A DNA stretch of 64,000 nucleotides, taken from the IMG/VR virus record IMGVR_UViG_3300042482_000679. One strand, written 5' to 3'. The notes under the pieces were generated by a model. That model had not been told where the DNA came from and did not search any database. It was given only the letters and a program-made list of their open reading frames with translations. Every line of letters starts with the position of its first letter. Position 1 is the first letter of the stretch. The DNA is from a virus. This document shows positions 5,969 to 12,535 of this stretch, in pieces. The translations under genes were made by a program, and so were the position numbers.

Positions 5969-7945
5969 ATGATAGTTCTTACAACAACATATAATTGTGA
6001 AAATTTTGTAGAAAGGTCTTTACTGAGTATAATGAGTCAACGTTTTAAAAACTTTACTTGTTATATTACTGATGATATGTCTACCGACAATACAGTGTCA
6101 ATAATCAAAGAGACTATTAAGGGTGACGATAGATTTGTATTGATTGAAAATACAAAAAAGATGTATCAACCAGGAAATTACGACCAAGTAATCAGAGGTT
6201 TAAACATACCTGATGATGAGGTTTGTGTTGAAGTAGATGGTGATGATTGGTTACCTAATTCAAATGTATTAGGGTTTATTGACGATGTTTATAAAAACCC
6301 TGATATTTGGATGACAAGTGGTTCATTTAAGTATCACGATGGTAGACTTGGTTTTGCAAAAAAACCACATAATTTATTAGACATTAGAAAACAAACTTTT
6401 ACCCTAACGCATTTAAGAACTTGGAAATCTTGGTTATGGAAAAAAATTGAGCAGTCTGATTTAATGGATTCTAATGGCGAATATTGGTCGGTTGCTGGGG
6501 ATTTATCATTTATGTTTCCAATGGTTGAGATGTCAGGCGAAAAACACTTTAAGTTCATACCTGAAATTTTATACGTCTATAACGAATCAAACCCGTTAAA
6601 TGACCATAAAGTTAATATGTCAGTTGTGAATAATACAACGTCAATAATTAGGAATAAGAAACCATACAAAAGATTATCAGGTTCCGAATCAACAAACCCA
6701 CACGATTTAATTACAAATCAAAGATTTGATGTGATTGTTAAATATCTTTACGCACAATCTATAATTAAAAATTATCAGACAGATACGTACAAAAATTTAT
6801 ACAAAGAACATTTAATAAAATGGAATAATTGTTTTGAAATTTCAAACCCATCAAAAAATTCATTCGAGGTATTTGACAATACTTTTAAAGATATTATCAC
6901 TAATATAAGTGAGAATGGATTTGACCCACAAATATCAAAAATCCCTGTGGTGAATGATAAATATATTGTTAATGGTGCTCACAGATTGGCCGCGAGTTTA
7001 GCTTTAAATAAGAATGTTTTTACTGAAGAATCTACAAGTATTAAAGACGGTCAACTAATTTGTTCTTGGGAGGGTGAATTCAAAAAATTAAATTTAAGTG
7101 AAACTCTATGTGATAGAGTTGCTCTTGAATACGCAAAATTAAAAAATAACACTTATATTGTTAGCGTTTTTCCATCAACAGGAGGGAATATCGAAGTACC
7201 TCTTTCTATTCTAAAAAAATACGGTTCTGTATTTTATTACAAACAAATAAAATTAGAAAAGAACGGTCCTCTAAACTTTATGAGAGAGTTATATGCCGGT
7301 GAACAATGGGCTGGTAATCATCAAAACAATTACATTGGTTATAGACAGAAAGAAGGTTTGTGTTTTACACAAAACGCACCTGTAACAATCTTCTTAGTTG
7401 AATTTGATAGTGTTGAGCAGTCTGTAAGAGCTAAAGAAGAAATTAGGAATCGTTTTAATATAGGAAAACATTCTGTTCATATAAATGACACTCACGACCA
7501 AACTATCAGACTTTCACAATGTGTATTTAATCAGAACTCAATAAAATTTATGTGTGATAGTACCCCATCAGATTACAGAAAATTTGATGGTTTATTAAAT
7601 AGTTTTAAAAAATATATTGAGGATAATAATTTAGATATTGATGAATATGCGGTAACCGCAAGTTCAATACTATCAATCTATGGTCTTAGAGAAGGTAAAG
7701 ACTTAGATTATATCCACACAAAATCAGCACCGTTAATTAAAGTAAGTGATGATATACAATCTCATAATTCATATGGTATTGGTAGATATGAACTTAATTA
7801 TGATGAAATAATTCACAATCCAGTTAATCATTTCTATTCGAGAGGGGTCAAATTTGTTTCCCCAAAAATAATAAAAGATATGAAAGAAAAGAGGAACGAA
7901 CCGAAAGATATTAACGATATAAACCTATTAAATAGTATATTGTAA
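5969..7945 (+). CDS. GT2 glycosyltransferase fused to ParB/Srx-like and nucleotidyltransferase-like domains
   Basis: TTYNCE...DDMSTD...VDGDDWL (GT2); IVNGAHRLAA (ParB/Srx); SSILSIYGLREGKDLDY (Pol-beta-type NTase). Confidence 0.7.
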   Translation: MIVLTTTYNCENFVERSLLSIMSQRFKNFTCYITDDMSTDNTVSIIKETIKGDDRFVLIENTKKMYQPGNYDQVIRGLNIPDDEVCVEVDGDDWLPNSNVLGFIDDVYKNPDIWMTSGSFKYHDGRLGFAKKPHNLLDIRKQTFTLTHLRTWKSWLWKKIEQSDLMDSNGEYWSVAGDLSFMFPMVEMSGEKHFKFIPEILYVYNESNPLNDHKVNMSVVNNTTSIIRNKKPYKRLSGSESTNPHDLITNQRFDVIVKYLYAQSIIKNYQTDTYKNLYKEHLIKWNNCFEISNPSKNSFEVFDNTFKDIITNISENGFDPQISKIPVVNDKYIVNGAHRLAASLALNKNVFTEESTSIKDGQLICSWEGEFKKLNLSETLCDRVALEYAKLKNNTYIVSVFPSTGGNIEVPLSILKKYGSVFYYKQIKLEKNGPLNFMRELYAGEQWAGNHQNNYIGYRQKEGLCFTQNAPVTIFLVEFDSVEQSVRAKEEIRNRFNIGKHSVHINDTHDQTIRLSQCVFNQNSIKFMCDSTPSDYRKFDGLLNSFKKYIEDNNLDIDEYAVTASSILSIYGLREGKDLDYIHTKSAPLIKVSDDIQSHNSYGIGRYELNYDEIIHNPVNHFYSRGVKFVSPKIIKDMKEKRNEPKDINDINLLNSIL

Positions 7946-7948
7946 AAT

Positions 7949-8548
7949 ATGCCAATATCAGATAACCTAAAAACAATTTTTGTCCATATACCAAAAAACG
8001 CTGGTACTGCAATTACTAATAGTAAAATTGCAAGATTTTATATGGGTGGTCACGATTCGGCAAAAGAAATTAAAAATAAAGAACCTAAAAAATGGGACGA
8101 ATATTTCAAATTTGCCGTCATTAGAAATCCTTGGGATAGGGTCGTTTCCAATTATGAGTATGCTCGTATGGAAAAAAGTTATTGGCACCACGTAAGTGAC
8201 ACGAATGTTGGCGCGGCTCATTTCGATTACCATACATTGAAAGATAAAACATTTGAGGAGTGTGTTAATATGTTGTATGAAGACAGGTCGTCTTTAAAAC
8301 ATCAAGGTTGGGCACCTCAATATGTGTGGATATCTGATAATGAAAAAAATATTTTAGTTGATAAAGTTTTTTATCACGAAACTTTAGAAACTGATGAGGA
8401 GTTTAATAAGTTAATTCCTGATTTAGAAAAGGTAAACTTTAGTGATAGAAAAAGCAACAATTACAAAGATTATTATACTGAAGATTTGATACGTAAGGTG
8501 TCAGAGATTTATGAATATGATATAAATTTATTTAAATTCAAATACTAA
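7949..8548 (+). CDS. Sulfotransferase (Sulfotransfer_2 family)
   Basis: 5'-PSB loop FVHIPKNAGTAI and 3'-PB motif IRNPWDRVVSNY. Confidence 0.9.
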   Translation: MPISDNLKTIFVHIPKNAGTAITNSKIARFYMGGHDSAKEIKNKEPKKWDEYFKFAVIRNPWDRVVSNYEYARMEKSYWHHVSDTNVGAAHFDYHTLKDKTFEECVNMLYEDRSSLKHQGWAPQYVWISDNEKNILVDKVFYHETLETDEEFNKLIPDLEKVNFSDRKSNNYKDYYTEDLIRKVSEIYEYDINLFKFKY

Positions 8549-8551
8549 ATT

Positions 8552-9001
8552 ATGATTTATTGGTTTACAGGCCAGCCAGGCCACGGAAAAACGGTTTTAT
8601 CTAACCATTTAAAAGGTTATTTAGAATCAAATTACAAAAAAAATGTCATTCACATTGATGGTGATGACATTAGAGAAATCTTTCAGAATAAAGACTATTC
8701 AAGGGAAGGTAGAATTAAAAACATAACATTCGCACAAAACTTGGCACATTTTTGTAGTCACAAAGGATTTGACGTTGTTGTTAGTGTTGTTGCACCATAT
8801 AAAGAAGTTCGAGATTCTTTTAAGGAAAGAATGGGTGAAAATATGGTAGAATTATATGTACACACAACTGAGGAAAGAGGACGTGAAAATTACCACGTCG
8901 CAGATTACGAAGCACCAACTGAAAATTATGTTGATGTTGATACAACAGATGAATCACCAGAAGGTTCATTGGTTTACATTATTAATGAATTAGATATATG
9001 A
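8552..9001 (+). CDS. cysC: Adenylyl-sulfate (APS) kinase
   Basis: IYWFTGQPGHGKT P-loop, IDGDDIR, YSREGR..NI, VVAPY, YEAP. Confidence 0.9.
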   Translation: MIYWFTGQPGHGKTVLSNHLKGYLESNYKKNVIHIDGDDIREIFQNKDYSREGRIKNITFAQNLAHFCSHKGFDVVVSVVAPYKEVRDSFKERMGENMVELYVHTTEERGRENYHVADYEAPTENYVDVDTTDESPEGSLVYIINELDI

Positions 9002-9339
9002 AGAAATTTAACACCTATTTTTGTGACATAGATGGCACAATTTTTAAGTATAGAAAGTTTACTGATATACCAGTCACAAAACCTGAAGTAATAACATCAG
9101 TTGCTGAAAAATTAAATGAATGGTTTTATGAAGGTCATCATATTGTTTTAACTACCGCAAGACCTGAAAATTTGAGAAGCCACACTGAATTTGAATTAAA
9201 AGATAATAATATAAAATACAATCAATTGGTTATGGGTATCGAAAGAGGTCCAAGATATCTAATAAATGATATGGACCCTGATAAAGAAGGTGAAAGAGCA
9301 ATTGGTATAAACTTAAATAGAGATAAAGGATTTGAATAA
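8998..9339 (+). CDS. Small HAD-superfamily phosphatase (capsule-locus type)
   Basis: FCDIDGTI motif I, LTTAR motif II, YLIND. Confidence 0.8.
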   Translation: MKKFNTYFCDIDGTIFKYRKFTDIPVTKPEVITSVAEKLNEWFYEGHHIVLTTARPENLRSHTEFELKDNNIKYNQLVMGIERGPRYLINDMDPDKEGERAIGINLNRDKGFE

Positions 9340-9340
9340 A

Positions 9341-9745
9341 ATGGAAAATTGGACTAAAAAAATTCACGTAGGGTCGTCCTTACCCGCTAAAGATGGACAA
9401 TACGCAATGTTTGTTGGTAGATGGCAACCACTCCATCCTGGACACCAAGAACTTTTTAAACAAGCAATGGATGAAGGTAAGAATGTTTTAATTTGTATTA
9501 GAGACATTGCCCCTGACGAAAAAAATCCATTTGCTGCCGAAGAGGTTAGACAAAATATTATGGAACATTACTCAAATGAATGTGAGGAAGGAAAGGTAAA
9601 AGTTATGGTTATTCCAGATATCTGCTCAATAGAATTTGGAAGAGGAGTTGGTTACGATATTATTGAGCGTATACCACCACAGCAAATTGCAGATATTTCA
9701 GCAACTAAAATTCGTGAACAAATGAAAAAAGAAGGTAAATTATGA
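9341..9745 (+). CDS. HIGH-superfamily nucleotidyltransferase (cytidylyltransferase-like; candidate minimal ATP sulfurylase)
   Basis: GRWQPLHPGH (HxGH) and ISATKIR motifs; ATG at 9341 preferred over TTG at 9332. Confidence 0.75.
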   Translation: MENWTKKIHVGSSLPAKDGQYAMFVGRWQPLHPGHQELFKQAMDEGKNVLICIRDIAPDEKNPFAAEEVRQNIMEHYSNECEEGKVKVMVIPDICSIEFGRGVGYDIIERIPPQQIADISATKIREQMKKEGKL

Positions 9746-9975
9746 TTGATGTAAAAATTAGATACAATACGGTTTGTGATGATAATCACATGTATTGGAG
9801 AATTTTAATAAACGGTGTTGAACATACTTGTTCAAATATCTTAATAGAAACACCCATGCACACAACTATTGATACGGTGTATGACCCATCAAGAGAAAAA
9901 ATGGTAACAAAACACCATATCTCTTGTATGGCATCTGAAGTTATTTGGAAGGGTGATGTTGTAATTGTTAAGTAA
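9742..9975 (+). CDS. Hypothetical protein
   Basis: 77 aa, overlaps both neighbouring genes. Confidence 0.65.
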   Translation: MIDVKIRYNTVCDDNHMYWRILINGVEHTCSNILIETPMHTTIDTVYDPSREKMVTKHHISCMASEVIWKGDVVIVK

Positions 9976-10196
9976 TGGTAAACGTTAAAAGACATATTGG
10001 TAAAACTATAAGTTACCGTTTGATTGGGACACTTACAACAGTGTTAGTAGCATATTCTTTTGGAGCGGATATAAAATTAGCTTCCTTAATGGGTGTTGGT
10101 GAATTATTATTTAAACCAGTAATCTACTTTTTACACGAAAGAGTTTGGTACAAATACATAAAATTTGGGTTGATAGAAAAAAAAGATGGAAATTAA
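9975..10196 (+). CDS. DUF2061-like small membrane protein
   Basis: RHIGKTISYRLIGT...YFLHERVW pattern, two hydrophobic segments. Confidence 0.8.
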   Translation: MVNVKRHIGKTISYRLIGTLTTVLVAYSFGADIKLASLMGVGELLFKPVIYFLHERVWYKYIKFGLIEKKDGN

Positions 10197-10748: not shown

Positions 10749-11177
10749 ATGAAAAAAATTTCACATAGAGGTAATTTAAATGGTCGTATTCCTGAGAGAG
10801 AAAACTCACCTGATTATATTGTTGAGTCTTTATCTCTTGGTTATAATTGTGAGATTGATGTTTGGGTGGTTAATGATGAATATTTTTTAGGTCACGACAA
10901 AGCTCAATACAAAATTGAGGAGACATTTTTAGAAAGCAATTTATTATGGTGTCACGCTAAAAATATTCAAGCTCTCGAAAAGATGTTAAAGAATAAAAAA
11001 ATACATTGTTTTTGGCATCAAAATGATGATGTTACTTTAACATCGAAAGGTTTTATTTGGACCTATCCAAATAAAGAATTAACAAAAAAATCAATCTGTG
11101 TTTTACCTGAACTAAATTCTTTTGATATGGGAGATTGTTATGGGGTCTGTTCAGATTATATTCAACAATACAAATGA
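10749..11177 (+). CDS. Small GDPD/PLC-like phosphodiesterase
   Basis: ISHRGN...ENS...EIDVW...LGHD. Confidence 0.7.
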   Translation: MKKISHRGNLNGRIPERENSPDYIVESLSLGYNCEIDVWVVNDEYFLGHDKAQYKIEETFLESNLLWCHAKNIQALEKMLKNKKIHCFWHQNDDVTLTSKGFIWTYPNKELTKKSICVLPELNSFDMGDCYGVCSDYIQQYK

Positions 11178-12535
11178 TAAAGTTAATAATTTTTGATTTG
11201 GATGGTGTATTAATAGATACAAAAAATATTCATTTTGAATCATTAAATGACGCAATCGTAAAATATCAACCTGAATGTGTAATTCCTTGGGAAGAACATT
11301 TGGGTAAATTTGATGGGTTAAAAACAAATCAAAAGTTGGATATTTTAACTAAGGAAAAAAATCTTGATTCTAACCTGCATAATTTAATATGGTTAGAAAA
11401 ACAAAAATTAACCATCGAGAAATTAACTGAAACGGTTCCATCAAAACATATTGTCGAGTTATTTAAAAACTTATCTAAAGATGGGTATAAAATCGCCTGT
11501 TGCAGTAACTCAATTAGAAAGACGGTTTTAACTGTATTATCGAAACTTCAAATAATTGAGTTTTTCGATATTATCATATCAAATGAAGATGTGATTAATA
11601 GTAAACCACACCCTGAAATGTATTGGACTTGCATTTCGAAAATGAAATGCTTACCGGAACAAACATTAATTATTGAGGACTCTCCATACGGGTTATTAGC
11701 AGCATCAAGGTCCCATTCAAAAATTATGAGAGTGTCATCACCAGATGAAGTTAATACAAAAAATGTATACAATAAATTAAGTGAGATTAATCATATTACA
11801 ATGAAAAGCCCAAAGTGGTCAGACAAAAAATTAAATGTTCTTATACCTATGGCGGGTGCCGGTTCTCGTTTTGAAAAGGCCGGATATAGTTTTCCAAAAC
11901 CCCTAATAGATGTTAAGGGTGAACCAATGATTAAGGTTGTAAGTGAAAACTTAAACCTTGATGCGAACTTTATTTACATAGTTCAAAAATCACACAGAGA
12001 AAAATACAATTTAGACACATTATTAAATTTAATCAGTCCAAACTGTAAAATAGTTGAAGTTGACGGTGTTACGGAAGGTGCTGCGTGTACCACCCTTTTA
12101 GCCAAAGAATTCATCAATAATGACGATTCGTTAATCCTTGCAAACTCAGACCAATTTATTGAGTGGGACTCTAACGAGTTTATGTATAAAATGAAAGAAA
12201 CTGATGTTGATGGAGGTATTGTAACATTCGAATCTACCCACCCAAAATGGTCTTTTGCAAAATTAAATGAATTTGGTTTTGTTAGTGAAGTTGCCGAAAA
12301 GAATCCAATTTCTGACATAGCAACTGTAGGAATATATTACTGGAAGAAAGGTTCTGATTATGTAAAATATGCAGAACAAATGATTAGTAAGAACGTAAGA
12401 GTTAATAATGAATTTTATGTGTGTCCTGTCTTTAATGAGGCAATACCTGACGGTAAAAAAGTGATAAATTACCGTATAGACAAAATGTGGGGTCTTGGGA
12501 CACCGGAGGATTTAGTAACATACTTGAACAAGTAA
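11174..12535 (+). CDS. HAD phosphatase fused to sugar-phosphate nucleotidyltransferase
   Basis: FDLDGVL, KPHPE, IEDS (HAD); IPMAGAGSRF..PKPLI, EK, GLGTPEDL (NTP transferase); ATGA overlap at 11174. Confidence 0.85.
   Translation: MIKLIIFDLDGVLIDTKNIHFESLNDAIVKYQPECVIPWEEHLGKFDGLKTNQKLDILTKEKNLDSNLHNLIWLEKQKLTIEKLTETVPSKHIVELFKNLSKDGYKIACCSNSIRKTVLTVLSKLQIIEFFDIIISNEDVINSKPHPEMYWTCISKMKCLPEQTLIIEDSPYGLLAASRSHSKIMRVSSPDEVNTKNVYNKLSEINHITMKSPKWSDKKLNVLIPMAGAGSRFEKAGYSFPKPLIDVKGEPMIKVVSENLNLDANFIYIVQKSHREKYNLDTLLNLISPNCKIVEVDGVTEGAACTTLLAKEFINNDDSLILANSDQFIEWDSNEFMYKMKETDVDGGIVTFESTHPKWSFAKLNEFGFVSEVAEKNPISDIATVGIYYWKKGSDYVKYAEQMISKNVRVNNEFYVCPVFNEAIPDGKKVINYRIDKMWGLGTPEDLVTYLNK

What the first reader, a model, noticed from the sequence alone, without database searches (positions are those of the whole stretch)
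7949..10196. Self-contained PAPS sulfation block with a candidate 134-aa minimal ATP sulfurylase
Seen: sulfotransferase, CysC, small HAD, HIGH nucleotidyltransferase (GRWQPLHPGH, ISATKIR), a hypothetical gene and DUF2061, tightly packed, with no CysD/N or Sat in the window. Known: Sat-type ATP sulfurylases are HIGH-superfamily enzymes with HxxH and ISGT-like motifs but are about 400 aa. Inference: the small HIGH protein supplies APS, the HAD removes PPi or PAP, and the phage runs a miniature sulfate-activation pathway for glycan sulfation.
Basis: partly seen in the sequence, partly recalled or inferred. Interest (0 to 1): 0.75.

Follow-up and report, generated by a model that had tools for sequence, protein, structure and literature searches.

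The report
Phage sulfation cassette, candidate mini ATP-sulfurylase
A giant phage carries six tightly packed genes that probably make the activated-sulfate donor PAPS and use it to sulfate sugars; its 134-residue enzyme belongs to a large unnamed family that is the best candidate for the ATP sulfurylase that SAR11 and other abundant ocean bacteria appear to lack.

Summary
Window 7949-10196 (+) holds six translationally coupled ORFs: a Sulfotransfer_2 enzyme, a lid-less APS-kinase homologue, a small HAD, a 134-aa HxGH nucleotidyltransferase (NT), a 77-aa ORF and DUF2061. The window has no Sat or CysD.

The NT is not a cut-down Sat. By sequence and fold it is nearest NadM-type NMN adenylyltransferases, lacks about 25 residues of their middle segment, and has its own invariant Arg54 and Arg101.

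Its relatives track APS/PAPS genes closely:
- A kinase is adjacent in 43 of 43 well-flanked viral loci.
- It is fused to APS kinase in hundreds of proteins, in both domain orders, including full canonical CysC domains (191 and 222 bits).
- It lies next to sulfotransferases of three Pfam families.
- One SAR11 subclade has the operon NT-aprM-aprB-aprA-TauE, where sat normally sits.
- Other bacterial loci read CysQ-kinase-NT.

38 of 40 NT-bearing genomes have no Sat, although 27 have sulfotransferases. Of 94 AprB-positive, Sat-negative SAR11 genomes, 90 carry the NT. CoaD, CoaE and NadD are present separately.

Best reading (about 0.7): an undescribed third type of ATP sulfurylase that, with the mini APS kinase, forms a minimal PAPS synthase. 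There is no biochemical proof. This scan reached the same reading before on SAR11, SAR86 and other phage DNA.

The parts
7949..8548 (+). PAPS-dependent sulfotransferase (Sulfotransfer_2 family), the consumer of the module
   Evidence: Pfam PF03567 1.7e-12; phrog_3347; 5'-PSB motif PKNAGT at residue 15 and 3'-PB motif RNPWDRVVS at residue 59. In most related phages a Sulfotransfer_1/3 enzyme holds this place instead.
8552..9001 (+). Lid-less mini APS kinase (CysC homologue), inferred to convert APS to PAPS
   Evidence: Pfam APS_kinase 1.7e-17, 64 bits against GA 21; NCBIfam CysC models all below their cut-offs. It keeps the P-loop, DGDxxR, F/Y-S, R and P..R motifs but lacks the KGLYKKA..FTGI lid present in 8 of 40 partner kinases. 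The family profile's best 24 solved matches are all APS kinases, 4.5e-37 to 1.5e-23.
8998..9339 (+). Small HAD phosphatase; accessory, inferred PAP 3'-phosphatase (alternative: pyrophosphatase)
   Evidence: Weak Pfam HAD_PNKP 2.4e-4, below GA; phrog_1238 and phrog_415. A PNKP-type HAD is present in 8 of 43 well-flanked viral cassettes and follows the NT in L018. In phage locus L192 a generic HAD-family domain (PF00702, 2.3e-6) is fused to a canonical APS kinase. A CysQ-type enzyme sits in the analogous position in L085, L071 and L080.
9341..9745 (+). 134-aa HxGH nucleotidyltransferase: candidate third-type ATP sulfurylase (sulfate + ATP <-> APS + PPi)
   Evidence: CTP_transf_like 9.6e-9. More than 8000 near-length relatives. 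Invariant across 36 diverse members: G26 R27 Q29 P30 H32 H35 P63 G100 V103 G104 Y105 R125; at least 90% conserved: R54 N62 P92 R101 I119 S120 T122. AF2 model pLDDT 88, pTM 0.80. Context, fusion and phyletic evidence.
9742..9975 (+). 77-aa ORF, the split-off N-terminal module of longer DUF2061 proteins
   Evidence: No Pfam family. 33% identical (E 6e-8) to the N-terminal half of the 148-aa DUF2061 protein P0245. Most longer DUF2061 relatives are 140-157 aa. Optional in related cassettes.
9975..10196 (+). DUF2061 small predicted membrane protein, recurrent partner of unknown role
   Evidence: Pfam PF09834 9.9e-16. Present in 33 of 43 well-flanked viral loci. Fused to the NT in P0278 (196 aa; NT part 55% identical). 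Not found next to the cellular NT genes.

Best explanation
The block is a self-contained PAPS supply-and-use module inside the phage's glycan-synthesis region.

Step 1 (inferred): the 134-aa NT acts as an ATP sulfurylase of a new type and makes APS and PPi from ATP and sulfate. It uses the superfamily's ATP-binding motifs, HxGH (H32, H35) and ISxTxxR (R125). The family-specific invariant residues R54, N62, R101 and Y105 are candidates for holding the small sulfate anion, in a pocket left open by loss of the NMNAT middle segment.

Step 2 (inferred from homology): the lid-less APS kinase phosphorylates APS to PAPS. This pulls the thermodynamically unfavourable first step (textbook knowledge) and would explain why the two genes are almost never apart and are so often fused.

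Step 3 (inferred from family and motifs): the Sulfotransfer_2 enzyme moves sulfate from PAPS to a sugar built by the neighbouring glycosyltransferases.

Step 4 (weaker inference): the small HAD removes the inhibitory product PAP, or alternatively PPi.

The 77-aa ORF plus DUF2061 form a split small protein, predicted to be membrane-bound, whose role is unknown. It may tether the NT.

In one SAR11 subclade, where the NT stands alone upstream of aprMBA, the same enzyme would run in reverse (APS + PPi -> ATP + sulfate).
For: Coupling to the kinase: adjacent in 79 of 80 viral loci and 43 of 43 with full flanks. In the 80 cellular loci, 49 have an adjacent stand-alone kinase and about 20 are fused.

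Fusions: most of 1692 longer homologues carry PF01583 plus PF01467. Both orders occur: kinase-NT, and NT-kinase in L029, L079, L086 and L091. The kinase partner can be a full canonical APS kinase: L021 191 bits, profile 3-152 of 152; L192 222 bits. The kinase family's best 24 solved matches are all APS kinases.

PAPS consumers nearby: Sulfotransfer_2 here and in L192; Sulfotransfer_1/3 in 23 viral loci; a Sulfotransfer_3-like gene beside the bacterial fusion. Phage DLP_6, which has the fusion, has a Sulfotransfer_2 gene elsewhere.

APS, PAP and sulfate contexts in cells:
- Operon NT-c15 (4-5 TM segments, AprM-like)-AprB-AprA-c18-TauE in L048, L051 and L033, with no kinase. This mirrors sat-aprMBA of A. 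vinosum (PMC3779200).
- Kinase-NT convergent on aprBA in L088, L089, L092 and L094.
- CysQ-like - kinase - NT in L085, L071 and L080.
- A PF03601 (YeiH-type) transporter - kinase - NT in SAR86.

Missing-enzyme logic:
- Sat in only 2 of 40 NT genomes; CysD over its cut-off in 1 of 40.
- Sulfotransfer_3 over its cut-off in 27 of 40, including a complete SAR86 chromosome with no Sat, CysD or AprB.
- In 151 SAR11 genomes: NT 107, AprB 98, Sat 6. Cross-tabulated: NT+AprB+ 94, NT+AprB- 13, NT-AprB+ 4, neither 40. Of the 94 AprB+ Sat- genomes, 90 have the NT.
- PMC10356861 states that most SAR11 lack ATP sulfurylase.

Other roles already filled: CoaD, CoaE and NadD were found in the 5 NT genomes tested.

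Fold: HIGH-superfamily Rossmann fold shared with Sat (1v47, Z 7.3 over 115 residues). The SGTxxR-type motif, whose Arg swings toward sulfate in Sat, is kept as ISATKIR with R125 invariant.
Against: No activity has been measured for any member.

The nearest relatives are NMN adenylyltransferases, not Sat: PDB profile search 1f9a at 2.6e-13 with no ATP sulfurylase among the 60 best of 70 matches at E<=10; Foldseek and VIA rank NMNAT and PPAT first.

The Sat-defining RNP and GRD motifs are absent. hhalign against two canonical Sat proteins aligned only the C-terminal hairpin and ISxT motif, at 21% probability.

Some contexts show no sulfotransferase: Xylella phage Salvo (PF13469 and PF03567 negative over the whole genome; PF00685 not tested), the TARA viral contigs where the fusion sits by a TAGT glycosyltransferase and sugar-nucleotide enzymes, and a phage subgroup with kinase-NT-DNA methylase.

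In most SAR11 loci the immediate neighbours are an enoyl-CoA hydratase and a CoA-binding protein, and a few NT-ECH fusions exist.

Sat and the NT are not mutually exclusive: 5 of 6 Sat+ SAR11 genomes also carry the NT.

SAR11 genomes are syntenic and related, so many loci and genomes represent few independent events. Many of the genomes are incomplete single-cell or metagenome assemblies.
Confidence: 0.7

Rival explanations
1. The substrate is right but the reaction is different. The NT binds APS but is not an ATP sulfurylase. It could be an APS:phosphate adenylyltransferase (APS + Pi -> ADP + sulfate), an APS hydrolase, or a non-catalytic APS/PAPS-binding partner that regulates the kinase.
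For: All of the APS/PAPS context evidence fits equally well. In the aprMBA operon, only APS removal is required.
Against: The catalytic HxGH and ISxTxxR motifs that hold the ATP beta/gamma-phosphates or PPi in this superfamily are invariant, which argues for an ATP/PPi-linked reaction. Genomes with sulfotransferases but no Sat, CysD or AprB (the complete SAR86 chromosome) need an APS-forming enzyme, not an APS-destroying one.
Confidence: 0.1
2. The NT activates a different small acceptor for the glycan, for example a glycerol-, choline- or sugar-phosphate cytidylyl- or adenylyltransferase. The APS kinase works on APS supplied by the host.
For: The cassette lies in a glycosyltransferase block. 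The TARA contigs place the fusion beside a TAGT glycosyltransferase, an epimerase and UDP-glucose dehydrogenase. Cytidylyltransferases match the fold at Z 6.6-7.8. Pfam names the domain cytidylyltransferase-like.
Against: This does not explain the near-obligate pairing and repeated fusion with APS kinase. It also does not explain the aprMBA operon, or the CysQ and sulfite/sulfate-transporter contexts that have no glycan genes. Most host-type genomes that carry the pair have no Sat or CysD to supply APS.
Confidence: 0.08
3. The pair is a NadR-like NAD salvage unit: the NT is an NMN/NaMN adenylyltransferase and the kinase a nicotinamide-riboside kinase.
For: The closest sequence and fold relatives are NadM, archaeal NMNAT and NadR. 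The GRFQPxHxGH and NPF motifs are shared.
Against: About 25 residues of the NMNAT middle segment are missing. All NCBIfam NMNAT models score far below their cut-offs (34.8 bits against 127). The kinase matches APS kinase rather than the NadR kinase family. NadD is present in NT genomes. There is no NAMPT in the closest phage record and no Nudix fusion. No NAD gene appears among the recurrent neighbours.
Confidence: 0.06
4. The pair is a PPAT/dephospho-CoA-kinase-like unit that makes CoA or another 3'-phospho-ADP cofactor.
For: PPAT is the second-best fold match (Z 9.7). CoA, like PAPS, carries 3'-phospho-ADP. In 35 SAR11 loci an enoyl-CoA hydratase follows the NT, 30 have a CoA_binding_2 gene nearby, and a few NT-ECH fusions exist.
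Against: Canonical CoaD and CoaE are present in the tested NT genomes. The partner kinase belongs to the APS kinase family, sometimes in full canonical form. The ECH adjacency is confined to syntenic SAR11 genomes and is absent from phage, SAR86, archaeal and aprMBA-linked loci.
Confidence: 0.05

Closest known systems
Sat-type ATP sulfurylase (PF01747; e.g. A. vinosum Sat of the sat-aprMBA operon, T. thermophilus 1v47)
   Same: Same superfamily fold (Z 7.3 over 115 residues). HxxH and S-x-T-x-x-R motifs are shared. The operon position upstream of aprMBA is the same in a SAR11 subclade. Partnership and fusion with APS kinase are shared.
   Different: 134 aa in a single domain, against about 350-400 aa with an N-terminal beta-barrel domain. 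Below the Pfam cut-off (17.5 bits against 24.3). The RNP and GRD sulfate-binding motifs and the mobile loop are absent. By sequence it is closer to NMNAT than to Sat.
Bifunctional PAPS synthases (metazoan PAPSS1/2, PDB 1x6v; Aquifex Sat-APS kinase, 2gks)
   Same: APS kinase joined to an HxxH nucleotidyltransferase domain, in both domain orders, next to PAPS users.
   Different: The transferase domain is a different and much smaller family. In the window the two activities are separate, overlapping-operon genes, and the kinase lacks its lid.
NadM-type / archaeal NMN adenylyltransferase (PDB 1f9a, 1ej2, 2qjt)
   Same: Best sequence match (2.6e-13) and best fold match (Z 10.2, rmsd 2.7 over 111 residues). 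Shares GRFQPxHxGH, NPF and SxTxIR.
   Different: Lacks about 25 residues between the IPxD strand and the GY hairpin. Has R54-D55 where NMNAT has G-S, and a new invariant R101. Partners, neighbours and phyletic pattern point to sulfur rather than NAD.
CysDN heterodimeric ATP sulfurylase
   Same: The proposed reaction is the same, and some CysN proteins are likewise associated with CysC.
   Different: Unrelated fold (PAPS-reductase-like CysD plus the GTPase CysN) and GTP-driven. CysD was found over its cut-off in only 1 of 40 NT genomes and not in the window.

Membership tests
Sat-type ATP sulfurylase (PF01747) | Scores above the Pfam gathering cut-off | tested here: not met
   17.5 bits against a cut-off of 24.3; 13 bits in G001.
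Sat-type ATP sulfurylase (PF01747) | HxxH motif and SGTxxR motif | tested here: met
   H32-P-G-H35 and I-S-A-T-K-I-R125; H32, H35 and R125 are invariant in 36 diverse members. Motif definition from PMC3779200.
Sat-type ATP sulfurylase (PF01747) | RNP motif (QxRNPxH) and GRD motif (GRDHAG) that bind sulfate | tested here: not met
   The sequence reads GRWQPLH. hhalign against two canonical Sat proteins pairs GRGVGY with the hairpin before ISGT, not with GRDHAG, at 21% probability.
Sat-type ATP sulfurylase (PF01747) | Multi-domain protein of about 350-400 aa with an N-terminal domain | tested here: not met
   134 aa, one Rossmann-type domain.
Sat-type ATP sulfurylase (PF01747) | Catalyses ATP + sulfate <-> APS + PPi | not testable with these tools
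   Only context, fusion and phyletic evidence is available.
NadM-type NMN adenylyltransferase | GRFQPxHxGH, NPF(T/S) and SxTxIR motifs | tested here: met
   Alignments to 2qjo, 2qjt and 1f9a.
NadM-type NMN adenylyltransferase | Full catalytic domain of about 170 aa including the middle segment; scores above the curated cut-offs | tested here: not met
   Profile positions 83->92 correspond to 1f9a residues 76->110, a deletion of about 25 aa. NCBIfam NF002243 gives 34.8 bits against 127; TIGR01527 gives 27.9 against 181.
NadM-type NMN adenylyltransferase | NAD-salvage context (Nudix fusion, NAMPT, or filling a missing NadD) | tested here: not met
   No Nudix domain; no PF04095 in G001; NadD present in NT genomes.
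APS kinase (PF01583), for ORF 8552-9001 | Above the Pfam cut-off; P-loop, DGDxxR, F/Y-S and R motifs | tested here: met
   64.3 bits against 21.1; invariant G7 G12 K13 D38 R41 R54 P82; the best solved matches are all APS kinases.
APS kinase (PF01583), for ORF 8552-9001 | Equivalog-level score and complete lid segment | tested here: not met
   TIGR00455 gives 65.5 bits against 138.7. The lid (KGLYKKA..FTGI) is deleted, unlike 8 of the 40 partner kinases.
PAPS-dependent sulfotransferase (PF03567), for ORF 7949-8548 | Above the Pfam cut-off, with 5'-PSB and 3'-PB PAPS-binding motifs | tested here: met
   48.5 bits against 22; PKNAGT and RNPWDRVVS.
Phosphopantetheine adenylyltransferase (CoaD) | Scores above the curated cut-off; fills the CoaD role | tested here: not met
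   TIGR01510 gives 21.3 bits against 103. Separate canonical CoaD genes score 174-194 bits in NT genomes.

The most novel reading that the evidence does not exclude
The 124-136-aa NT family is a third, independently evolved type of ATP sulfurylase and the smallest known, derived from an NMNAT-like ancestor. With a lid-less APS kinase it forms a minimal PAPS synthase. It would be the missing sat of SAR11 (both the aprMBA-linked and kinase-linked forms), SAR86 and other streamlined marine microbes. Large phages carry it so that they can sulfate their own glycans whatever the host's sulfur metabolism.
Probability: 0.65. Interest if true: 0.85.

Novelty: new variant of a known kind. Interest (0 to 1): 0.8.

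Why it matters
ATP sulfurylase is the entry point of sulfate into biology, and only two enzyme types are known (Sat and CysDN). SAR11, among the most abundant bacteria in the ocean, encodes APS reductase but is reported mostly to lack ATP sulfurylase (PMC10356861). That leaves open how it completes sulfite oxidation or makes PAPS.

A tiny, easily expressed candidate makes the question directly testable. It is present in 107 of 151 sampled SAR11 genomes, in SAR86, in marine archaea and in many phages. If confirmed it would:
- change sulfur-cycle annotation of marine metagenomes, where these genes are now labelled cytidylyltransferase-like;
- add PAPS synthesis and glycan sulfation to the list of phage auxiliary functions;
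- give biotechnology a PAPS-regeneration pair of under 300 residues in total.

Tried and rejected
1. The resemblance between the family motif GR[GD]VGY and the Sat motif GRDHAG was rejected. hhalign pairs it with the hairpin before ISGT.

2. Complex prediction on kinase (A5) plus NT (A3) gave no verdict (score 0.00, below the mark). It says nothing for or against binding.

3. The 200-residue N-terminal extension of the 321-aa NT variants is not an accessory catalytic domain. Atlas features and structure point to HNH/EndoVII-type homing endonucleases. P0136 carries PF07460.

4. The recurrent unknown neighbours (c7 of 357-376 aa, c12 of 259 aa, p291, and the 376-aa TARA protein) show no sulfotransferase similarity or PAPS-binding motifs.

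5. c18, the 116-aa protein at the end of aprBA, is not a HIT protein: it has no Pfam match and no HxHxH motif.

6. Strict complementarity between Sat and the NT in SAR11 was not found. 5 of 6 Sat+ genomes also have the NT.

7. Literature searches for DUF2061, for phage ATP sulfurylase/APS kinase, and for a novel nucleotidyltransferase-type sulfurylase found no description of this family. Two DNA-hypermodification papers do not mention the fusion.

8. The TARA metagenome records could not be searched whole for sulfotransferases because they are not held.

9. Model coordinates are not exposed, so I could not measure where R54 and R101 sit relative to the ATP site.
Full report
**Observation**

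Pfam assigns them as follows:
- Sulfotransfer_2.
- APS_kinase, 64 bits.
- A weak PNKP-type HAD.
- CTP_transf_like, with only a sub-threshold ATP-sulfurylase match (17.5 bits against a cut-off of 24.3).
- Nothing for the 77-aa ORF.
- DUF2061.

NCBIfam places the small nucleotidyltransferase (NT) nearest NadM-type NMNAT models, but far below their cut-offs.

The sulfotransferase has both PAPS-binding motifs.

The window has no Sat or CysD by tblastn. The closest held viral record, G001, which carries an identical NT, has none either.

The window belongs to a large phage, and the block lies inside a long run of glycosyltransferase and methyltransferase genes.

**The NT travels with an APS kinase**

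PHROG 10255 matched the kinase ORF with its N-terminal half and the NT with its C-terminal half. That pointed to fused proteins in Xylella, Xanthomonas and Stenotrophomonas phages.

The NT has more than 8000 near-length relatives. It also has 1692 longer ones, most of which combine PF01583 and PF01467.

Across 80 cellular and 80 viral loci, the fusion occurs in both domain orders.

A kinase is adjacent to or fused with the NT in 79 of 80 viral loci. The figure is 43 of 43 for loci with at least 3 kb on both sides. In 49 cellular loci a kinase of about 136 aa lies directly upstream of the NT.

The partner kinases form a continuum, from lid-less mini forms like the window's to full canonical APS kinases. 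Canonical examples are L021 at 191 bits and L192 at 222 bits.

The kinase profile's best 24 solved matches are all APS kinases.

**Links to PAPS, APS, PAP and sulfate**

In phages:
- The module sits beside sulfotransferases of different Pfam families. Replacement of the sulfotransferase by a non-orthologous one is what a cofactor-supply module would be expected to show.
- A PNKP-type HAD recurs in 8 of 43 cassettes. In L192 a generic HAD-family domain is fused to a canonical APS kinase.
- DUF2061 is present in 33 of 43 loci and is fused to the NT in P0278.
- The window's 77-aa ORF is the detached N-terminal half of longer DUF2061 proteins.

In cells:
- One SAR11 subclade has the co-directional operon NT-c15-AprB-AprA-c18-TauE, with no kinase. 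c15 has 4-5 TM-like segments and no Pfam match, as described for AprM. The NT therefore sits where sat sits in the co-transcribed sat-aprMBA operon of Allochromatium vinosum (PMC3779200).
- Another SAR11 group has kinase-NT convergent on aprBA.
- Some alphaproteobacteria have CysQ-like - kinase - NT.
- SAR86 has a PF03601 (YeiH-type) transporter - kinase - NT.
- A bacterial contig has the canonical fusion beside a sulfotransferase.

**Phyletic pattern**

Among 40 NT-bearing genomes:
- 2 have Sat and 1 has CysD over its cut-off.
- 17 have AprB, and none of those 17 has Sat or CysD.
- 27 have Sulfotransfer_3 genes, against 2 of 14 control genomes. These include a complete SAR86 chromosome that has no Sat, CysD or AprB.

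In a sample of 151 Pelagibacteraceae genomes:

| | AprB+ | AprB- | Total |
|---|---|---|---|
| NT+ | 94 | 13 | 107 |
| NT- | 4 | 40 | 44 |
| Total | 98 | 53 | 151 |

- Sat is present in 6 of the 151.
- Of the 94 AprB+ Sat- genomes, 90 have the NT.
- These counts include one unpublished genome, G161 (NT+, AprB+). Leaving it out changes each count by one and changes no conclusion.
- Relatedness and synteny inflate these numbers, and many of the assemblies are incomplete.

PMC10356861 states that most SAR11 lack ATP sulfurylase.

Canonical CoaD, CoaE and NadD are present in the five NT genomes tested. The PPAT, DPCK and NaMNAT roles are therefore already filled.

**Structure**

The AlphaFold model is confident (pLDDT 88, pTM 0.80).

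| Match | Z | Note |
|---|---|---|
| NMNAT 1f9a | 10.2 | best match |
| PPAT | 9.7 | |
| NadM | 8.5-9.1 | |
| Cytidylyltransferases | 6.6-7.8 | |
| Sat 1v47 | 7.3 | over 115 residues |

Foldseek and VIA agree on this order.

The PDB profile search aligns the family to NMNAT in two blocks. The gap between them implies a deletion of about 25 residues. From my own recollection, not tested here, that segment contributes to nicotinamide binding in archaeal NMNATs.

Family-specific invariant residues are R54 (NMNAT has Gly there), N62-P63, R101 and Y105.

The NT is therefore not a member of the Sat family: the RNP and GRD motifs are absent. It also fails the NMNAT membership tests.

**Mechanism and confidence**

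I read the block as sulfate -> APS (NT) -> PAPS (mini kinase) -> sulfated glycan (sulfotransferase). The HAD probably clears PAP, and the split DUF2061 protein is a partner of unknown role.

Only gene presence, homology and context are shown. All catalytic steps are inferred. I put confidence at about 0.7.

The main rivals are:
- another APS-linked reaction (0.10);
- a different acceptor for the glycan (0.08);
- an NMNAT / NR-kinase pair (0.06);
- a PPAT/DPCK-like pair (0.05).

**Unexplained**

- ECH and CoA-binding neighbours, and rare NT-ECH fusions, in SAR11.
- Fusion-bearing phages with no detected sulfotransferase: Salvo, the TARA/TAGT contigs, and the DNA-methylase subgroup.
- The co-presence of Sat and the NT in five SAR11 genomes.

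**Earlier scan notes**

Earlier notes of this scan reached the same reading on SAR11, SAR86 and other phage DNA. I consulted them after my own analysis. They supplied the PMC3779200 reference and the HIT-protein lead, both of which I checked. They are not independent evidence.

Noticed in passing
L192:6042-6989 (viral contig IMGVR_UViG_3300021197_001752): A 315-aa protein fuses a full canonical APS kinase (222 bits) to a C-terminal HAD-family domain. It lies between DUF2061 and the NT, with a Sulfotransfer_2 gene 2.5 kb upstream. This is a Rosetta-stone link between a HAD and the PAPS pathway.
   Followed up: partly
L014:6001-8009 (TARA viral contigs, also L015-L017): The fused kinase-NT sits directly upstream of a PF20691 TAGT (TET-associated glycosyltransferase) gene, an epimerase and a UDP-glucose dehydrogenase, near DNA polymerase B. 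No sulfotransferase was found in the locus. The DNA- or glycan-modification role of the pair here is unexplained.
   Followed up: partly
L163:6576-11627 and about 25 similar viral loci: A phage subgroup has DUF3310 - kinase - NT - N6/N4 DNA methylase - 357-376-aa unknown - DUF5856 - a weak DHH-like 470-aa protein, with no sulfotransferase within 5 kb. The DHH family includes NrnA-type PAP phosphatases, but the match is below threshold (E 0.0011).
   Followed up: no
P0187, P0200, P0218, P0219; L037:6359-7132: In many SAR11 genomes an enoyl-CoA hydratase follows the NT after a 6-17-nt gap. A few database proteins of about 384 aa read as NT-ECH fusions. Whether these are real fusions or lost stop codons was not checked.
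   Followed up: no
L018:6001-6600 (321-aa NT variants; also P0136): The N-terminal 200 residues of the long NT variants resemble HNH/EndoVII homing endonucleases. This suggests a mobile endonuclease module has fused to or inserted at the NT gene in freshwater phages.
   Followed up: partly
L048:9585-9935, L092:4722-5072 (c18): A conserved 116-aa protein with no Pfam family always ends the SAR11 aprBA operon, in both the NT-aprMBA and the convergent arrangements. It has no histidine triad.
   Followed up: partly
L001 (Xylella phage Salvo, NC_042345.1), gp24 and gp32: Salvo encodes the kinase-NT fusion (gp32, annotated 'kinase') and a gene annotated cysteine dioxygenase (gp24). PF13469 and PF03567 found no sulfotransferase in its 55.6-kb genome; PF00685 was not tested.
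   Followed up: partly
window 5969-7945 and 10749-12535: The 658-aa protein has a GT2 domain only in its first 130 residues, and the rest has no Pfam match. The 142-aa ORF at 10749-11177 has no Pfam match. The 466-aa ORF at 11135-12535 was not examined.
   Followed up: no
L074:799-1608 and L074:5935-6342 (SAR11 SAG AG-916-G03): One SAR11 genome carries two copies of the system about 4 kb apart: a 269-aa kinase-NT fusion and a separate kinase plus a 135-aa NT.
   Followed up: no
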